Of a stretch of DNA of 24,702 bases, positions 10,305-14,053 are shown piece by piece. Origin of the DNA: a plasmid; sequence record NZ_CP023150.1, one strand, 5' to 3'. Every line of letters begins with the position of its first letter. The first letter of the stretch is position 1. The notes under the pieces were generated by a model, which did not search any database, was not told the DNA's origin, and was given only the letters and a program-made list of their open reading frames with translations. A program made the translations under genes and the position numbers.

Positions 10305-11441
10305 TCAGCCATCGCCGAACCAGCGCTCCTTGCGGCTTCGGGCGAATTCGGCTTTCTCGTCAGCTATTTCGGCAGACGGGCCGATTAGTGAGCCTGTCGG
10401 TTTTGGTCCGCTGAGGAAGTTGACCTGCACCTTGCCGACCTCACCGCGCCCGAACTCCATGTAGCAGTCGCCCGCCCCGTCATAGGGAGGCGGCGCCGGT
10501 GTGCCCCGCAGGTTTGCGATGATGTCATCGGCGACGAACTGCGCGGCACGCTCGGCGAATAGGCCCGCCTTGGCGGTATAGGCGGCCGCCACGTCACCGA
10601 TTGCGTACACGCCGGGAAACCGGGTAGCCAGGTTGGTTTTTTCCACCGGAATCCATCCGTCGGGCGCCAGCCCCGAATCGGCGATGACCGCCGGCACCCG
10701 ATGCACGGGGATGCCGATGAAAAGGTCGTATGGAACTCCTTCGCCCTCGGCGAACTCGGCGAACTTGCGTTCGGGGTCCAGCCGGCTCACCGTCCGGTTT
10801 CCCATGAAGGTGATGCCACGCGCGGTCAGGTGCTGCTGAAGTGGCTCGGATACCTCCTTGGCGACGGGCACCGGGGCGCCCATGTAGCCCGTCACGGTTA
10901 TCGAGACCTGGTCGCGCAGTCCTCGGCCGGTGAAGTAGTCCTCAAGCAGAAACGCCGCCTCGAACGGCGCCGGTGGGCACTTGTACGGCTCGCCGAGCAC
11001 GCTGATGACGATTTTGCCGCCCGGGAACGCCGGCAGCGCGTCGCGCAGACGTTCCGCCCCGCCCAATGTGTAGTACTCGAAGCCGTCCTTGGTGAAACCA
11101 GGGGTGGCCTGTGTGTCGTACTCCGCGCCGAGCGCCACGACCAGAACATCGGCTTGATAGGAACCGGATCGGGTACGCACGTGGCGGTTTTCCGGGTCGA
11201 TCGCGGTGATCTCTTCTTGGTGGAAGTCGACGCCGGGTCTGGTCAGCGCCGCATACGGCAGGCGCACGTCGTCGGGCGTGCGTTTACCAAACAGCACGTC
11301 AAGTTTGGAGAAACCGAAAAAGAAAGAATCGTTGCGATCGATCAGCGTCACCCGCACCTGATCGGCAAGCAACTCCGATAGCCGCGTGGCAAGCTCAAGA
11401 CCACCGAACCCGGCCCCCAGAACCAGCACGTGCAACGTCAT
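10305..11441 (-). CDS. FAD-dependent pyridine nucleotide-disulfide oxidoreductase, sulfide:quinone oxidoreductase (SQR/FCSD)-like, paralog 2
   Basis: N-terminal Rossmann motif VLVLGAGFGG. It has a CPPAP redox-Cys motif (KCPPAPFEAA). It is a paralog of the gene at 12000-13184. Start chosen at MTLHVLVLGAG (ATG 11441, RBS GGAAGGGAAG). Confidence 0.65.
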   Translation of the reverse strand: MTLHVLVLGAGFGGLELATRLSELLADQVRVTLIDRNDSFFFGFSKLDVLFGKRTPDDVRLPYAALTRPGVDFHQEEITAIDPENRHVRTRSGSYQADVLVVALGAEYDTQATPGFTKDGFEYYTLGGAERLRDALPAFPGGKIVISVLGEPYKCPPAPFEAAFLLEDYFTGRGLRDQVSITVTGYMGAPVPVAKEVSEPLQQHLTARGITFMGNRTVSRLDPERKFAEFAEGEGVPYDLFIGIPVHRVPAVIADSGLAPDGWIPVEKTNLATRFPGVYAIGDVAAAYTAKAGLFAERAAQFVADDIIANLRGTPAPPPYDGAGDCYMEFGRGEVGKVQVNFLSGPKPTGSLIGPSAEIADEKAEFARSRKERWFGDG

Positions 11442-11659
11442 CAGCTTCCCTTCCGGGGCCGGCTCGCGCCGACAGGCCCCCATTCCTGTCGCTCAGTATT
11501 GCCACCGAGATTCGAAACAAACAAAGCCGCTCGCTGTACTTGCGCCGCAGACGAGCTTGACGAAACCACGACCCGGGCACCATAGGCGAGTGCGGGTACC
11601 ACAAGTATCGAGGGTGTCCAGCGACAACCGCGATCGCGACAATTCGATAGCAGTGCCTT

Positions 11660-11971
11660 TCATGAGCTGGCCGGGCCGGGCACTGCCTCCACTTTGGAAC
11701 GCAGTGCACGCTCGGCCGTAGTGGGGATGCCCAGTCGGTGTAGCAAAACGCTCGTCGGGCACCAGCCCACCGCCGCGTCGAGCAGCAGGTTAGCTCCCAC
11801 AAAACCAGTGAGAATCCTCCATCGCTTTGAACGCACGCGGCCAAGGGTTAAGGTCACCAGGACCACAGAACCGGCGATGAGGTGCACGGTTCTTTCCAGG
11901 GTCCACCCTTGTGGCCGTGGCATCTGAAACGCTCCTCGCTCAATCGGGGCCGAGCCTTGGTTATTCGTCAT
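11660..11971 (-). CDS. DUF2892 (YgaP C-terminal-like) small membrane protein with a conserved GWCP motif
   Basis: It has two TM helices and a VGWCP motif. RBS AGGAAGGTG. Genes of this kind often accompany SQR/rhodanese genes. Confidence 0.55.
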   Translation of the reverse strand: MTNNQGSAPIERGAFQMPRPQGWTLERTVHLIAGSVVLVTLTLGRVRSKRWRILTGFVGANLLLDAAVGWCPTSVLLHRLGIPTTAERALRSKVEAVPGPASS

Positions 11972-11999
11972 GGGACCTCACACCTTCCTGTAAGTTGTT

Positions 12000-13184
12000 C
12001 TAGCGCGTGGCCGAGGTGGGGTGTTCCCAGAGGGCTCGCCAGTCGTGTTCTTCTTGTTGCTTGTCGTGGTGTAGCTGCTCGGATGGCGCGGTGAGGTGGA
12101 TCGCGGGCTGGGGTAGGGTGAAGAAGTCTCCTTTGCCCTGGGCAGAGGTGTGTGCCCCGGCGTCGATGTAGCAGTACCCTTCGCCCGACAGAGCGCCGGT
12201 GTGGTCGGTCATCTTGAGGTAGTGCAGTGCGTTTTCGGCGGCTGCTTTGGCCCCGTTTTTGGCGAAGATCGCCGCTTTGGGCAGGGGCCGGCCGGATGGC
12301 GATGTGATCGCGGTGGTGTCTCCGATGGCGAAGATTCCGGGGTGTTGGGTTTGCATGGTGGTCGCATCGACACTGATCCAGCCCGCACCGTCGAGCGTAA
12401 TAGCCGGTTCGTGCGGGGGGACGAACACCAGCAGGTCGAACTCGACGAGGGTGCCGTCCTGGAACTCGATGACCCGGGTGTCGGCGTTGACCTGCATAAC
12501 GCTGTGTTCGCCGTAGAAGCCGATGTTGTTATCGGCCAGTAGCGCCACGAGTTCTTGGCCGGCGTAGGGACCCGCCGAGAGCATGGGTTGGGTTTCCGGG
12601 CTATACACCGACAGCTGCGTGGCATCGCGGCAACCGTTCTCGCGGAGTAGGTCTGCGGCCAGCAGGGCTCCTTCGTAGGGGGCCGGTGGGCAGCGGAACG
12701 GCTGGGAGGTCACCAGGAACACCAGTTTGCCGCCGGTGAAGTTGTGCAGGGCGCGGTGCGCGTCGGCGGCGGCGTCGGCGCTGTAATAGTGCACCGCGGT
12801 GCCGCCCTCCACCGCGGCCGCCAATCCCGGCACGTTGTCCACGGCGTTGCGGGCGCCGGTGGCGATGACCAATGCGTCGAAGGCAATGTCGGTGGAGTCG
12901 GCCAGAGTCACGGTGCGCTCGACCGGGTCGATGCTGGCGACTGAGCCGGTGATGGTCGTGAGCCCGGACAGTGCGTCGGCGGTGGGGCGAATGGACACGC
13001 TGTCCTGGTCGCGCCAGCCGCGCATCACCCATGGCAGGGTGAAGCCCAGATAGTGGGAGAAGTCTTCGTCGACGACGGTGGTGTCGAGATTATCGAGAGG
13101 GACGCCGGATTCGGTGAGTTCTTTGATGACGCTGAGTCCGCCGATGCCGGCACCGAGAATCACGAGCTTCTTATTCGTGTGCAT
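12000..13184 (-). CDS. FAD-dependent pyridine nucleotide-disulfide oxidoreductase, SQR/FCSD-like, paralog 1
   Basis: It has the LVILGAGIGG FAD-binding motif and the FRCPPAPYEGA redox motif. RBS AAGGAAAGGG. Confidence 0.65.
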   Translation of the reverse strand: MHTNKKLVILGAGIGGLSVIKELTESGVPLDNLDTTVVDEDFSHYLGFTLPWVMRGWRDQDSVSIRPTADALSGLTTITGSVASIDPVERTVTLADSTDIAFDALVIATGARNAVDNVPGLAAAVEGGTAVHYYSADAAADAHRALHNFTGGKLVFLVTSQPFRCPPAPYEGALLAADLLRENGCRDATQLSVYSPETQPMLSAGPYAGQELVALLADNNIGFYGEHSVMQVNADTRVIEFQDGTLVEFDLLVFVPPHEPAITLDGAGWISVDATTMQTQHPGIFAIGDTTAITSPSGRPLPKAAIFAKNGAKAAAENALHYLKMTDHTGALSGEGYCYIDAGAHTSAQGKGDFFTLPQPAIHLTAPSEQLHHDKQQEEHDWRALWEHPTSATR

Positions 13185-13498
13185 GGTTTCGCTACCCTTT
13201 CCTTACCTAAACAGATTCCTGCGGGGGAGCAGTTCGCGATTGATGGCGGTCATCAACCGGCCGATCTGTTATGTGTCGCGCATCGGCGCCTGCTGGCGGG
13301 GCGGCAGTTCTCGTCCTGGTTGAGGACGGCCAAACTCATCAATTGCCAGTCGATGGGCACTGCGGTTTTGTCGGCGACCGCAGCCAGCCGGCGTTCCACG
13401 AAAACGGACACACGGGGTCTAACCAGATCGTCACCTCGCAACGGGTCGGTCATCCCCGCGGGTGTGAGTCATGTGCTTTCGCCTCCTCCGGTTTGGGG

Positions 13499-13819
13499 TC
13501 AGGCCAGGCTCAGGAACAGTTTCTCCAGCTCATCGATTGAGGTGATCGGCCTGTCACCAGGTGCGGCAGCTGGCCGGTCCATGCAGTCGCGCAGACCGGT
13601 GGCGATGATTTTGAAGCCGGCGCGATCCAAGGCCCGAGACACCGCGGCCAGCTGGGTGACGACGTCTTTGCAGCTGCGTCCCTGTTCGATCATCGCGATC
13701 ACTCCGCCGAGCTGACCCTGCGCTCGGCGCAATCGGTTAAGGACGGCAACGATGTCGTCAGCATTGTGGCCGGCCCCACCGACCGTCTGCGGCGTCTCGC
13801 CGCGAACTATGCTTGCCAT
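13499..13819 (-). CDS. CsoR/RcnR-family (DUF156) repressor, two-cysteine variant (CstR-like)
   Basis: The 106-aa protein has the family helix [18 protein letters not shown] and a second Cys 29 residues downstream (LRDCMD), as in CsoR C36/C65. The residue at the position of the Cu-ligand His (Cys minus 4) is Gly in my hand alignment. Confidence 0.75.
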
Positions 13820-13827
13820 GACTCGTT

Positions 13828-13850
13828 TATACCATACCCCCTATGGTATA
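13828..13850. promoter_or_regulatory. CsoR-type operator TATACCATA-CCCCC-TATGGTATA overlapping the presumed promoter/start of the CsoR-family gene
   Basis: Perfect 9-bp inverted arms around C5. The reverse complement ATACCATAGGGGGTATGGTA is nearly identical to the B. subtilis CsoR operator. It begins 9 bp from the ATG. Confidence 0.6.
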
Positions 13851-14053
13851 TAAGTCATGGCAGGTCGCTGACGCCGCCGGGAAAGCGCCGTTGCTCAACC
13901 GGCGCCGCGATCATGCGGCGGCCGACCAGGTGACAAATATCGGCCTGGTGTCCGGCGTCCCCGCCAGTCACACCCGCCGCTCGATGCGGCGGCCCGGGCG
14001 TGAACAGCAATTTTGCTTGATAGTGACGCTGTCAGGAGGGGAAGAAGGTTTGA

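What the first reader, a model, noticed from the sequence alone, without database searches (positions are those of the whole stretch)
10305..13853. Two-cysteine CsoR-family repressor with a CsoR-type operator heading an SQR-like / DUF2892 / SQR-like gene set: candidate persulfide-sensing (CstR-like) sulfide-detox module
Seen in sequence: the 106-aa DUF156 protein keeps the two Cys positions of CsoR (C50 and C79, 29 residues apart). In my hand alignment the position of the Cu-ligand His (Cys minus 4) is Gly, and the protein has no other suitable His. That is the CstR rather than the CsoR/RicR ligand set. A perfect palindrome TATACCATA-C5-TATGGTATA, nearly identical to the B. subtilis CsoR operator, begins 9 bp from its ATG. 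Downstream on the same strand lie two paralogous flavoproteins with CPPAP redox motifs (SQR/FCSD-like), separated by a DUF2892 GWCP membrane protein. Established knowledge: S. aureus CstR is a CsoR paralog that senses persulfides through two Cys and controls sqr and sulfurtransferase genes. Inference: this is a mycobacterial CstR-type RSS regulon. It is unusual in carrying two SQR paralogs and in sitting on a mobile backbone next to mmpS-mmpL.
Basis: partly seen in the sequence, partly recalled or inferred. Interest (0 to 1): 0.8.

Follow-up and report, generated by a model that had tools for sequence, protein, structure and literature searches.

The report
Sulfur-stress repressor controlling plasmid efflux genes
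A small mycobacterial plasmid carries a two-cysteine CsoR-family repressor of the kind already proposed to sense reactive sulfur, and its most conserved partner is not the neighbouring sulfide-oxidase-like genes but a divergently transcribed MmpS/MmpL export pump, a link I did not find described.

Summary
The 106-aa PF02583 protein has C50 and C79, with Gly at the Cu-ligand His position. The 9-5-9 inverted repeat (13828-13850) is unique in the window. Both flavoproteins are SQR/FCSD-like by sequence, and SQR_B also by predicted fold. The window is a whole 24.7-kb Mycobacterium avium-complex plasmid.

The regulator belongs to a tightly conserved actinomycete x-C-G-C clade. Its genomic neighbours are rich in persulfide dioxygenase-rhodanese, TauE, rhodanese-DUF2892, DUF302 and SQR genes. 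This fits the published "cluster 3" candidate persulfide sensors, which include the characterised S. coelicolor ScCsoR. The concept is therefore not new.

- The window's regulator sits in a subclade with a 23-bp operator. That subclade is nearly always divergent from an orthologous mmpS-mmpL pair of MmpL4/5 type.
- The same operator lies upstream of mmpS even in genomes with no adjacent regulator.
- The 314-bp "gap" after the regulator is a decayed Rv2466c-like gene.
- SQR_B has its own conserved upstream element and no operator.
- The SQR-like proteins lack C-terminal membrane helices.

Verdict: a new variant of a known kind. The inducer, reactive sulfur or general thiol stress, is inferred and not shown.

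The parts
13499..13819 (-). CsoR-family (PF02583) repressor, 106 aa, fingerprint x-C50-G75-C79. It belongs to the actinomycete two-Cys clade and to the subclade with the 23-bp operator.
   Evidence: Pfam; PDB alignments; alignment of 80 relatives with C50 79/79, C79 79/79 and G75 78/79; NJ tree.
13828..13850 (.). Operator: 9-nt inverted repeat TATACCATA / TATGGTATA around a C5/G5 spacer, ending 8 nt upstream of the regulator ATG. It overlaps -10-like hexamers in both directions: TATAAA at -12..-7 of the ATG, and TATGGT on each strand.
   Evidence: Unique in the window, 0 of 100 shuffles. The same 23-bp type is found upstream of the regulator in all 11 nearest genome loci and in L088, and L093 carries a site of this type in its REG-mmpS intergenic region. 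The promoter overlap is inferred from the sequence.
13834..13849 (+). Embedded 16-bp ATACCCCCTATGGTAT, a perfect match to ATACCn6GGTAT, the published ScCsoR consensus.
   Evidence: consensus from PMC7533328.
13937..13951 (-). Degenerate second CsoR-type site ACACCAGGCCGATAT, about 100 nt upstream of mmpS. It is homologous in position to the intact ATACCCAGGCGGGTAT in M. pseudokansasii and is polymorphic among the three plasmids.
   Evidence: Whether it functions in the window is uncertain.
13233..13467 (-). Pseudogene remnant of an Rv2466c-like (PF22234) DsbA-fold mycothiol-dependent reductase. It has three reading frames and an internal stop, and only about 85 of about 205 codons remain.
   Evidence: tblastn with intact orthologues from L006, L007, L008, L012 and L027; Pfam of an intact orthologue; indels differ among the three plasmids.
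12000..13184 (-). SQR_A: 394-aa SQR/FCSD-family flavoprotein. It has an N-terminal GxGxxG, redox Cys165 (RCPPAP) and Cys338, and a short charged C-terminus.
   Evidence: Pfam and NCBIfam. Best PDB hit is the FCSD flavoprotein 3vrd_B, with both Cys aligned. Orthologues lie in the same transcription unit downstream of the regulator in L005 and L027 (there behind the Rv2466c-like gene) and L088.
11660..11971 (-). DUF2892 / YgaP-like two-helix membrane protein with a GWCP motif, starting 28 nt after SQR_A.
   Evidence: PF11127. It is paired with SQR_B orthologues in M. kansasii and M. pseudokansasii.
10305..11441 (-). SQR_B: 378-aa SQR-like flavoprotein, with the start taken at M15. In 32 homologues C155 (KCPPAP) and C326 are invariant. 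There is a single charged C-terminal helix and no pair of amphipathic membrane helices.
   Evidence: AlphaFold pLDDT 90.6. Foldseek best hits are A. aeolicus, human and A. ferrooxidans SQR.
11494..11506 (-). Conserved GGTGGCAATACTG element about 52 nt upstream of the SQR_B start, possibly its own promoter. Coordinates were counted by hand from the alignment.
   Evidence: Identical in the window, M. pseudokansasii and M. kansasii while the flanks diverge. Function is inferred.
14054..14482 (+). MmpS (PF05423), closest to MmpS4 and MmpS5, transcribed divergently from the regulator.
14479..17379 (+). MmpL RND exporter of the MmpL4/MmpL5 type. It is the probable second target of the operator.
   Evidence: PDB MmpL4 1271 bits; TIGR00833 above cut-off. 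Orthologues lie next to regulators of this family in 12 of 80 loci and in L088, L092 and L093. Operators lie upstream of mmpS in the regulator-less loci L090, L091 and L094.

Best explanation
This is a plasmid-borne copy of a conserved mycobacterial thiol/sulfur-stress regulon.

**The regulator.** It is a CsoR-fold tetrameric repressor of the actinomycete two-cysteine (x-C-G-C) clade. That clade is most likely the one holding S. coelicolor ScCsoR and M. tuberculosis Rv1766.

**Repressed state.** In the reduced state the repressor sits on the 9-5-9 inverted repeat. The repeat overlaps the -10 region of the regulator's own, probably leaderless, promoter. It also lies in the shared control region of the divergent mmpS-mmpL operon.

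**Induction.** Sulfane sulfur (persulfide or polysulfide) attacks Cys50. The modified Cys50 stays as a persulfide or forms a di- to tetrasulfide bridge to Cys79 of the neighbouring protomer. The repressor then leaves the DNA.

**Transcription units released.**
1. regulator - dead Rv2466c-like gene - SQR_A - DUF2892, possibly reading through to SQR_B.
2. mmpS-mmpL.

**Proposed roles of the products.** The two SQR/FCSD-like flavoproteins would oxidise sulfide to sulfane sulfur through their Cys pair and FAD. The electron acceptor is unknown. The MmpS/MmpL4-5-type pump exports an unidentified substrate.

**Shown here:** family membership, ligand residues, operator conservation, gene linkage, and the fold and catalytic Cys of the flavoproteins.
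**Inferred:** the inducer, the Cys chemistry, the promoter positions, co-transcription, enzyme activity and pump substrate.
For: **Sensor residues.** In 79-80 relatives from Mycobacterium, Nocardia, Streptomyces, Actinomadura and Segniliparus, C50 and C79 are invariant. The position of the Cu-ligand His is Gly in 78 of 79, and the Tyr35 position is never Tyr.

**Neighbourhoods of the 80 loci**:
- DUF302 in 40
- rhodanese-YgaP_TM in 24
- TauE in 22
- PDO-rhodanese in 21
- Rv2466c-like in 18
- thioredoxin in 12
- SQR-like in 8-10
- 45 loci hold at least one core sulfur-oxidation gene

**Published work.** Fakhoury 2021 assigns actinomycete x-C-x-C proteins to candidate RSSH-sensing cluster 3. ScCsoR has Cys37 and Cys66, the same 29-residue spacing. 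It binds ATACCn6GGTAT and is released by polysulfide. The window operator contains that 16-mer exactly.

**Operator conservation.** It is conserved in all clade-A loci, and clade A is monophyletic in the NJ tree.

**mmpS-mmpL link.**
- It is adjacent to the regulator in 9 of 12 clade-A members and in L088, L092 and L093.
- M. pseudokansasii keeps the same six genes in a different order (SQR_B<DUF2892<mmpL<mmpS <-> REG>SQR_A), with one operator on each side.
- Chromosomal orthologues without an adjacent regulator still carry the operator upstream of mmpS.
- L010 has mmpL<mmpS <-> REG>PDO-Rhod>SQR>DUF302>TauE.

**Flavoproteins.**
Against: - Nothing was tested experimentally.
- The sequences of ScCsoR and Rv1766 could not be obtained. 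Placement in the same cluster rests on shared features and on 63-80% identity to Streptomyces homologues found in ScCsoR-like contexts.
- No operator lies in front of SQR_A, DUF2892 or SQR_B. The regulator-to-SQR_A and DUF2892-to-SQR_B gaps are 314 nt and 218 nt, and the second holds a separately conserved element.
- The second, mmpS-proximal site is degenerate in this plasmid.
- The clade-A core regulon is MmpS/L, an Rv2466c-like reductase, DUF302, thioredoxin and an AhpD-like protein. That set would fit a general thiol-reactive stress as well as reactive sulfur.
- The operator also fits the RicR-type core TACCC-N4-GGGTA with one mismatch, so a host Cu sensor could bind it.
- Both SQR-like proteins lack the C-terminal amphipathic helices that anchor known SQRs to the membrane and form the quinone site. 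Quinone reduction is therefore unproven.
Confidence: 0.6

Rival explanations
1. The repressor is a general sensor of thiol-reactive stress (disulfide stress, electrophiles, quinones, hypohalous acids, aldehydes) and not a specific persulfide sensor. Its main job is to switch on an MmpL4/5-type efflux pump together with thiol-repair proteins. The SQR-like genes are an occasional add-on.
For: The clade-A core is MmpS/L, an Rv2466c-like mycothiol-dependent reductase and DUF302, often with thioredoxin and an AhpD-like CMD protein. SQR-like or PDO genes appear in only about half of the clade-A loci. In Rhodococcus, an SQR_B homologue is fused in an operon with a 1-Cys peroxiredoxin.
Against: The wider family is dominated by dedicated sulfur-oxidation genes: PDO-rhodanese, TauE and rhodanese-DUF2892. 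The one characterised actinomycete member responds to polysulfide. L010, inside clade A, heads a complete PDO/SQR/TauE operon.
Confidence: 0.2
2. The regulator controls only itself and mmpS-mmpL. SQR_A, DUF2892 and SQR_B are independently expressed cargo that landed next to it when the Rv2466c-like gene was truncated.
For: There is a single operator in the window. A pseudogene and a 314-nt gap lie between the regulator and SQR_A. A conserved GGTGGCAATACTG element lies upstream of SQR_B. In M. kansasii, DUF2892 and SQR_B occur without an intact regulator.
Against: SQR_A orthologues lie downstream of the regulator on the same strand in three independent contexts: L005, L027 and L088. No intrinsic-terminator-like site was found on the regulator's strand in 13100-14100; the three found are on the opposite strand. 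All six genes stay together after rearrangement in M. pseudokansasii. The M. kansasii locus keeps a CsoR-type site and gene relics nearby.
Confidence: 0.25
3. It is a metal sensor, for Cu(I) or another thiophilic metal, or its operator is used by the host RicR or CsoR. The module would then belong to the plasmid's copper-stress cargo.
For: - The operator resembles Cu-CsoR/RicR sites. The RicR site in the ricR promoter is TACCCCGCTGGGTA, and the clade-A consensus contains TACCCTACGGGGTA.
- The plasmid also carries a DUF326 Cys-rich Cu-binding protein. It has an operon in lpqS-cysK2-MFS gene order behind a CsoR-type site.
- Related islands carry CDF and P-type ATPase genes.
- H18 aligns with InrS His21.
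Against: The His ligand is Gly and the Tyr35 second-shell residue is Ser/Asn/Asp across the family. H18 is not conserved. No copA, copZ, rcnA or similar gene is adjacent in the window or in the clade-A loci I annotated. Published work shows that two-Cys CstRs bind Cu(I) without responding to it in cells (PMC8643695).
Confidence: 0.08

Closest known systems
ScCsoR (SCO0620) of Streptomyces coelicolor, a sulfane-sulfur-sensing CsoR-like repressor (Lu et al. 2020, PMC7533328)
   Same: Both are actinomycete proteins of the PF02583 fold. Both have two Cys 29 residues apart and no His ligand, and both are autoregulated. The ScCsoR operator ATACCn6GGTAT is present exactly inside the window operator. 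Streptomyces homologues 69-80% identical to the window protein sit beside PDO-rhodanese, TauE and rhodanese genes, as ScCsoR does.
   Different: The targets here are SQR/FCSD-like flavoproteins, DUF2892 and an MmpS/MmpL pump instead of PDO-rhodanese, TauE and rhodanese. The operator is extended to a 9-5-9 repeat. The locus is on a plasmid. A direct sequence comparison with SCO0620 was not possible.
CstR of Staphylococcus aureus, Enterococcus faecalis and Streptococcus pneumoniae (SSN clusters 4 and 10; PDB 7MQ1)
   Same: It has the same x-C-x-C fingerprint and the same sensing Cys positions. It is a repressor of sulfide-detoxification genes, including an SQR in S. aureus, and its operators resemble CsoR operators.
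   Different: The sequence relationship is weak: E = 1e-9 over 58 residues to SpCstR, no better than to the Ni sensor InrS. Gly replaces the Asn 'wedge'. It belongs to a different SSN cluster and has a different regulon.
M. tuberculosis CsoR and RicR (Cu(I) sensors) and Rv1766 (uncharacterised)
   Same: Same fold and the same type of GC-core, AT-flank operator. Rv1766 is listed with ScCsoR in the candidate persulfide-sensing cluster 3.
   Different: CsoR and RicR use a Cys-His-Cys ligand set plus Tyr35 and Glu81. Here the His position is Gly and the Tyr position is Ser. The RicR NCBIfam model scores 42.6 bits against a cut-off of 175.
Sulfide:quinone oxidoreductases (human SQOR, A. aeolicus and A. 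ferrooxidans SQR) and the flavocytochrome c sulfide dehydrogenase flavoprotein
   Same: Two-dinucleotide-fold flavoprotein with an N-terminal FAD motif. The two redox Cys occupy the same positions (human C201/C379, FCSD C161/C337). The CPP(A/G)P motif is as in FCSD. For SQR_B, Foldseek TM is 0.81-0.87.
   Different: Sequence identity is only 21-24%. At about 377-394 aa they lack the paired C-terminal amphipathic helices of SQRs. There is no cytochrome c partner, no signal peptide, and no FCSD Cys42 for covalent FAD. The SQR type could not be assigned.
MmpS4/MmpL4 and MmpS5/MmpL5 siderophore and drug exporters of M. tuberculosis
   Same: The same MmpS+MmpL operon layout, and very strong sequence matches: 1271 and 1174 bits for MmpL, 122 and 110 bits for MmpS.
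   Different: The window pair belongs to a separate orthologue group, 81-85% identical across slow-growing mycobacteria. From my own knowledge, MmpL4 and MmpL5 are controlled by IdeR and by Rv0678 (MarR). This pair instead carries a CsoR-family operator. Its substrate is unknown.

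Membership tests
CsoR/RcnR (DUF156, PF02583) repressors | Match to the family HMM above its curated cut-off | tested here: met
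   81.3 bits against 22.8, covering residues 25-102.
Cu(I)-sensing CsoR/RicR | Cys-His-Cys ligand set (MtCsoR C36, H61, C65) | tested here: not met
   The His position is Gly75, and it is Gly in 78 of 79 relatives.
Cu(I)-sensing CsoR/RicR | Second-shell Tyr35 that couples Cu binding to DNA release | tested here: not met
   Ser49 in the window; Ser/Asn in clade A and Asp/Glu elsewhere; never Tyr.
Cu(I)-sensing CsoR/RicR | Neighbouring copA/ctpV and copZ genes | tested here: not met
   None were found beside the regulator in the window or in the clade-A loci I annotated. RicR NCBIfam scores 42.6 bits against a cut-off of 175.
Persulfide-sensing CsoR-family repressors (CstR / ScCsoR type, x-C-x-C) | Two conserved Cys at the X and Z positions, with no metal-ligand His at Y | tested here: met
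   C50 and C79 are invariant, and position 75 is Gly.
Persulfide-sensing CsoR-family repressors (CstR / ScCsoR type, x-C-x-C) | Genomic neighbourhood of sulfide, persulfide or sulfite detoxification genes | tested here: met
   45 of 80 family loci hold PDO-rhodanese, TauE, rhodanese-DUF2892, SQR or DUF2892 genes. The window has two SQR-like genes and a DUF2892 gene.
Persulfide-sensing CsoR-family repressors (CstR / ScCsoR type, x-C-x-C) | Membership of the same sequence cluster as a characterised member (SSN cluster 3 with ScCsoR, or clusters 4/10 with CstR) | tested here: inconclusive
   The protein is 63-80% identical to Streptomyces, Nocardia and other actinomycete homologues found in ScCsoR-like contexts, and it shares the ScCsoR operator and Cys spacing. 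The SCO0620 and Rv1766 sequences and the SSN tables were not available. The match to SpCstR is only E = 1e-9.
Persulfide-sensing CsoR-family repressors (CstR / ScCsoR type, x-C-x-C) | Loss of DNA binding on reaction of the Cys pair with persulfide or polysulfide | not testable with these tools
   Needs EMSA or anisotropy measurements and mass spectrometry.
Sulfide:quinone oxidoreductase | FAD-binding fold with the two redox-active Cys at the flavin | tested here: met
   GxGxxG is present at the N-terminus. C155 and C326 (SQR_B) and C165 and C338 (SQR_A) align with the catalytic Cys and are conserved. For SQR_B, Foldseek TM is 0.83-0.87.
Sulfide:quinone oxidoreductase | C-terminal amphipathic helices for membrane and quinone binding | tested here: not met
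   The SQR_B model ends in one charged helix, residues 357-375 of 378. The SQR_A family ends in a charged ...DKQQEEHDWRALWE tail. The whole SQR_B family is about 377 aa.
Sulfide:quinone oxidoreductase | Assignment to one of the six described SQR types | tested here: inconclusive
   The NCBIfam 'type III' model scores 173 and 214 bits (cut-off 525). A human-like SQR from L078 scores 234 bits on the same model, so the hit is not type-specific.
Flavocytochrome c sulfide dehydrogenase | Partner cytochrome c subunit, export signal and covalent FAD Cys | tested here: not met
   No cytochrome gene is annotated or seen in the plasmid. The N-termini begin directly with the FAD motif. FCSD Cys42 aligns with Gly.
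MmpS/MmpL4-5 subfamily RND exporters | Full-length similarity to MmpL4/5 with an upstream MmpS gene | tested here: met
   1271 and 1174 bits to MmpL4 and MmpL5 over about 935 residues. TIGR00833 scores 1015 against a cut-off of 875. MmpS4 gives 122 bits.

The most novel reading that the evidence does not exclude
Slow-growing mycobacteria have a conserved regulon, also mobilised on plasmids. In it a reactive-sulfur-sensing CsoR-family repressor switches on a dedicated MmpS/MmpL4-5-type RND exporter together with mycothiol- and thioredoxin-type proteins and membrane-anchor-less SQR-like enzymes. Host or environmental H2S would then directly induce an efflux pump. That pump might export a sulfur-modified metabolite or a metallophore. 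Because it is close kin of MmpL5, it might also raise tolerance to drugs such as bedaquiline or clofazimine in M. avium-complex isolates that carry the plasmid.
Probability: 0.3. Interest if true: 0.7.

Novelty: new variant of a known kind. Interest (0 to 1): 0.5.

Why it matters
H2S and persulfides are now recognised as signals that change respiration, antioxidant capacity and drug tolerance in pathogens. Yet no reactive-sulfur sensor has been characterised in mycobacteria, and even the one candidate SQR of M. tuberculosis (Rv0331) is unproven (PMC6987094).

This locus offers a compact, testable system: one small repressor, one well-defined operator and two divergent outputs. The comparative data point to an output I did not find described, namely an MmpL4/5-type pump whose orthologues carry the same operator across many slow-growing species. 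No paper in the searched library mentions MmpL together with reactive sulfur species in mycobacteria.

If the link is real, it connects sulfide exposure to efflux in M. avium-complex clinical isolates and shows that the trait moves on mobilisable plasmids. If the inducer proves to be general thiol stress, the regulon is still a new mycobacterial stress circuit.

Tried and rejected
1. **SQR type from NCBIfam.** I took the 'type III SQR' hit as a type assignment.
2. **Extra operators.** I searched for a second strong operator in front of SQR_A, DUF2892 or SQR_B with relaxed patterns. None was found. My first pattern had the wrong spacing.
3. **N6 versus N7 spacing.** I considered that N6 and N7 spacing between ATACC and GGTAT might separate sulfur-type from copper-type operators. 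I dropped the idea because the published RicR site is also N6-compatible.
4. **Outer inverted repeat.** The 10-nt repeat 13814-13823 / 13853-13862 occurs only in the three near-identical plasmids. Its right arm is simply the conserved start of the regulator gene, so I do not treat it as a functional element.
5. **H18 as a fourth ligand.** It is not conserved.
6. **Reference sequences.** I tried to get the ScCsoR sequence and the SSN tables from supplements. They are images or not held.
7. **B. subtilis operator.** A literature search for the B. subtilis CsoR operator string found nothing.
8. **RNA elements.** Rfam and tRNA scans of the window gave nothing. The sigma-70 consensus scan found no promoter in 13100-14100, which is uninformative for mycobacteria.
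9. **Three-plasmid alignment.** The plasmids are too similar (96%) to show selective constraint on the operator.
10. **TbD1 (mmpS6/mmpL6).** I considered it as the orthologue because of its peroxide and copper phenotype. This could not be tested, and chromosomal orthologues map next to sigC instead.

Full report
**What the window is.** The 24,702-bp window is an entire circular plasmid of the Mycobacterium avium complex. It is 100% identical over 17.7 kb to pFLAC0181_CHOP101 of M. avium subsp. hominissuis; only the relaxase side diverges, at 92%. Its MmpL is 100% identical to a protein recorded from a 24,702-bp plasmid contig of M. paraintracellulare. Near-identical copies of the region in question, at 93-96%, lie on plasmids of M. 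kubicae and M. marseillense.

**Check of the observation.** ORF 13499-13819(-) encodes a 106-aa PF02583 protein (81 bits).
- HMMER alignments to solved structures place C50 on MtCsoR C36 and C79 on C65.
- They place Gly75 on the His61 ligand position, which is His in InrS and Geobacillus CsoR and Asn in S. pneumoniae CstR. Ser49 replaces the second-shell Tyr35.
- The only His, H18, aligns with InrS His21.
- The repeat TATACCATA-G5-TATGGTATA occupies 13828-13850, ends 8 nt before the ATG and is unique in the window; none of 100 shuffles gave a match.
- Downstream on the same strand lie a 394-aa flavoprotein (12000-13184), a YgaP-like_TM/DUF2892 protein (11660-11971) and a second flavoprotein (10305-11441 when started at M15, as in all homologues).

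**The regulator family.** A scan of one genome per species confirmed at least 437 relatives. The best 80 are 63-80% identical and come from Mycobacterium, Mycolicibacterium, Nocardia, Streptomyces, Kitasatospora, Actinomadura and Segniliparus.
- In an alignment of these, C50 and C79 are invariant. Position 75 is Gly in 78 of 79, and position 49 is never Tyr.
- I called genes in the 80 loci, clustered the neighbours and named the clusters with Pfam. The counts are DUF302 in 40 loci, rhodanese-YgaP_TM in 24, TauE in 22, metallo-beta-lactamase-rhodanese (persulfide dioxygenase type) in 21, Rv2466c-like in 18, thioredoxin in 12 and SQR-like in 8-10. 45 loci hold at least one core sulfur-oxidation gene.
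- This is the signature that Fakhoury et al. [quoted passage not shown]
- ScCsoR was shown to bind ATACCn6GGTAT, to be released by polysulfide and to need Cys37 and Cys66 (PMC7533328). The Cys spacing of 29 is the same here, and the window operator contains ATACCCCCTATGGTAT, an exact ATACCn6GGTAT.
- I could not obtain the SCO0620 or Rv1766 sequences or the SSN tables. Membership of cluster 3 is therefore a strong inference, not a demonstration.

**Two operator types and a subclade.**
- Most relatives carry a 16-bp ATACCCC-N2-GGGGTAT site upstream.
- The 11 nearest relatives (L003-L010, L012, L019, L027), the window, its two sister plasmids and M. pseudokansasii carry the longer TATACC[C/A]TA-N3-5-TATGGTATA.
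- These regulators form one clade in a neighbour-joining tree.
- The operator's arm overlaps TATAAA at -12..-7 of the ATG. This would fit a leaderless transcript. TATGGT is present on both strands (read; inference).

**The conserved partner is mmpS-mmpL.**
- In 9 of 12 members of that clade, an MmpS/MmpL pair 59-84% identical to the window's lies next to the regulator. It is usually divergent, with the operator in the shared intergenic region, and two operators are often present.
- Three other relatives have regulator>mmpS>mmpL, and one has mmpS>mmpL>regulator.
- M. pseudokansasii keeps the same six genes in another order, SQR_B<DUF2892<mmpL<mmpS <-> REG>SQR_A. It has a clade-type operator 8 nt before the regulator ATG and an ATACCCAGGCGGGTAT about 96 nt before mmpS. 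The homologous site in the window is degenerate (13937-13951).
- The pump is of the MmpL4/MmpL5 type (1271 and 1174 bits). It belongs to its own orthologue group, 81-85% identical across many slow growers.

I sampled five chromosomal orthologues of the pump:

| Species (locus) | Arrangement |
|---|---|
| M. colombiense (L093) | Canonical divergent layout with Rv2466c-like and DUF302 |
| M. xenopi (L092) | DUF302>Rv2466c-like>REG>mmpS>mmpL>CMD>Trx |
| M. liflandii (L090) | No adjacent regulator; TATACCCTACGGGGTATGGTATA 270 nt upstream of mmpS |
| M. kansasii (L091) | No adjacent regulator; ATACCGTGGGGGGTATGGTATA 160 nt upstream of mmpS |
| M. paragordonae (L094) | No adjacent regulator; ATACCCGGTAGGGTAT before mmpS and a second site before a downstream thioredoxin |

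A CsoR-type operator therefore travels with this pump whether or not the regulator gene is next door. I found no paper that links MmpL with reactive sulfur species in mycobacteria or that reports a CsoR-family repressor acting at an mmpS-mmpL promoter. A report that the TbD1 mmpS6-mmpL6 locus affects peroxide and hypoxic copper tolerance shows that such roles for MmpS/L pairs have a precedent (PMC9048740).

**The 'gap' is a dead gene.** In intact clade-A loci the regulator is followed by a gene of about 205 aa for an Rv2466c-like, DsbA-fold, mycothiol-dependent reductase (PF22234), and then by DUF302 or an SQR-like gene. In the window, 13233-13467 matches the first ~85 codons of that gene in three different frames, with an internal stop, and then runs straight into the SQR_A ribosome-binding site. 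The three plasmids differ by several indels exactly there. The SQR_A-DUF2892-SQR_B block therefore seems to have replaced the 3' part of the ancestral operon.

**The flavoproteins.**
- For SQR_B, the best PDB sequence hits are human SQOR, FCSD flavoproteins and bacterial SQRs over its full length, while NDH-2 matches only the N-terminal FAD domain. For SQR_A, the best hits are FCSD, then SQOR and bacterial SQRs.
- The Cys of K/RCPPAP aligns with human C201 and FCSD C161. The C-terminal Cys aligns with C379 and C337.
- Both Cys are invariant in 32 SQR_B homologues down to 61% identity, and both are conserved in SQR_A orthologues.
- An AlphaFold model of SQR_B (pLDDT 90.6) is closest to the A. 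aeolicus, human and A. ferrooxidans SQRs (TM 0.83-0.87), then FCSD (0.81-0.83), then NDH-2 (0.73-0.75).
- Three cautions apply. The NCBIfam 'type III' hit is not type-specific. Both families are short (about 377 and 394 aa) and end in one charged helix instead of the paired amphipathic helices that anchor SQRs and shape the quinone site. There is no cytochrome partner or export signal.
- Sulfide oxidation at the Cys pair is plausible. The electron acceptor is unknown. A role for the always-adjacent DUF2892 membrane protein is speculation.

**Are the SQR genes in the regulon?** No further operator exists in the window.
- SQR_A follows the regulator on the same strand in L005, L027 and L088, in L005 and L027 behind the Rv2466c-like gene. 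DUF2892 starts 28 nt after SQR_A. Read-through to these two genes is therefore plausible.
- SQR_B is preceded by 218 nt that contain a GGTGGCAATACTG element. The element is conserved in M. kansasii and M. pseudokansasii while the flanks diverge. SQR_B may therefore have its own promoter.
- In M. kansasii, the DUF2892-SQR_B pair sits beside copZ/ctpV-like genes, among relics of an AhpD-like gene and a CsoR-type site.

**Mechanism and rivals.**
- The best-supported reading is a repressor that senses reactive sulfur through Cys50 and Cys79' and derepresses its own operon and the divergent pump.
- The main rival is a broader thiol-stress sensor, because the clade's core partners are thiol-redox proteins and a pump.
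- A metal-sensing role is unlikely given the missing His and Tyr. However, the operator resembles RicR sites (TACCCCGCTGGGTA; PMC3944814), and the plasmid also carries copper-related cargo. Cross-talk with host copper sensors cannot be excluded.

**Novelty.** The type of regulator and its proposed signal are already in the literature. New, as far as I could find, are the following:
- the subclade with the extended operator;
- its conserved coupling to an MmpL4/5-type exporter, with Rv2466c-like and DUF302 genes;
- the anchor-less SQR-like plus DUF2892 module;
- the presence of all of this on mobilisable plasmids of clinical M. avium-complex strains.

Noticed in passing
window 3550-3566, with ORFs 3726-4157(+), 4265-5413(+) and 5410-7017(+): A CsoR/RicR-type site, ATACCGCTGGGGGGTAT, lies upstream of three genes: a small signal-peptide protein, an SbnA/CysK2-like PLP enzyme (TIGR03945, 253 bits, below cut-off) and an MFS transporter that is missing from the PLSDB gene table. 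The gene order matches the RicR-regulated lpqS-cysK2-rv0849 operon of M. tuberculosis. I did not compare the sequences with the Mtb genes, and a single such site is not significant on its own (about 0.1-0.2 expected by chance).
   Followed up: partly
window 855-1187(+): A 110-aa Cys-rich DUF326 protein, annotated 'four-helix bundle copper-binding protein'. Together with DUF1275 (1353-2048) it gives the plasmid a copper and sulfur stress flavour. Related islands carry CDF transporters, DUF1490 and P-type ATPases (L002, L088).
   Followed up: partly
L090 5305-5327 (M. liflandii) and L091 5413-5433 (M. kansasii): Chromosomal orthologues of the window mmpS-mmpL (83% identical) lie between sigC/blaC and the cob genes. 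They carry the clade-type operator 270 and 160 nt upstream of mmpS, with no CsoR-family gene or remnant within 6 kb. SigC is the ECF sigma factor tied to copper acquisition (PMC7924339). Whether that adjacency means anything is open.
   Followed up: partly
window 13814-13823 and 13853-13862: A perfect 10-nt inverted repeat, TGCCATGACT / AGTCATGGCA, brackets the operator. The result is an ATG-containing mirror image of the regulator's start on the mmpS side. It is present in all three plasmids but not in chromosomal relatives.
   Followed up: partly
window 11494-11506(-): GGTGGCAATACTG, about 52 nt upstream of the SQR_B start, is identical in the window, M. pseudokansasii and M. kansasii although the surrounding intergenic DNA differs in length by 250-300 nt. 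It may be a promoter or a binding site for another factor.
   Followed up: no
L085 5291-7137 (Rhodococcus tukisamuensis): An SQR_B homologue (76-77% identical) overlaps the stop codon of a 1-Cys peroxiredoxin gene. This suggests the short SQR-like family can work with peroxiredoxin-type thiol chemistry.
   Followed up: no
L014, L016, L025, L029, L030, L034, L035, L050, L052, L057, L061, L066, L075, L077 and others: In Nocardia, Actinomadura and some Streptomyces, a different MMPL-family transporter of about 720-830 aa (about 25% identical to the window MmpL) lies next to the regulator. It usually lies directly upstream on the same strand, with the operator between them. 15 of 80 loci hold it, which makes a second, independent link between this regulator family and MMPL transporters.
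   Followed up: partly
window 17794-24702: This stretch (the relaxase gene and the maintenance genes beyond it) is only 92% identical to pFLAC0181_CHOP101, with many indels, while the rest of the plasmid is 100% identical. This suggests recombination between related plasmids.
   Followed up: no
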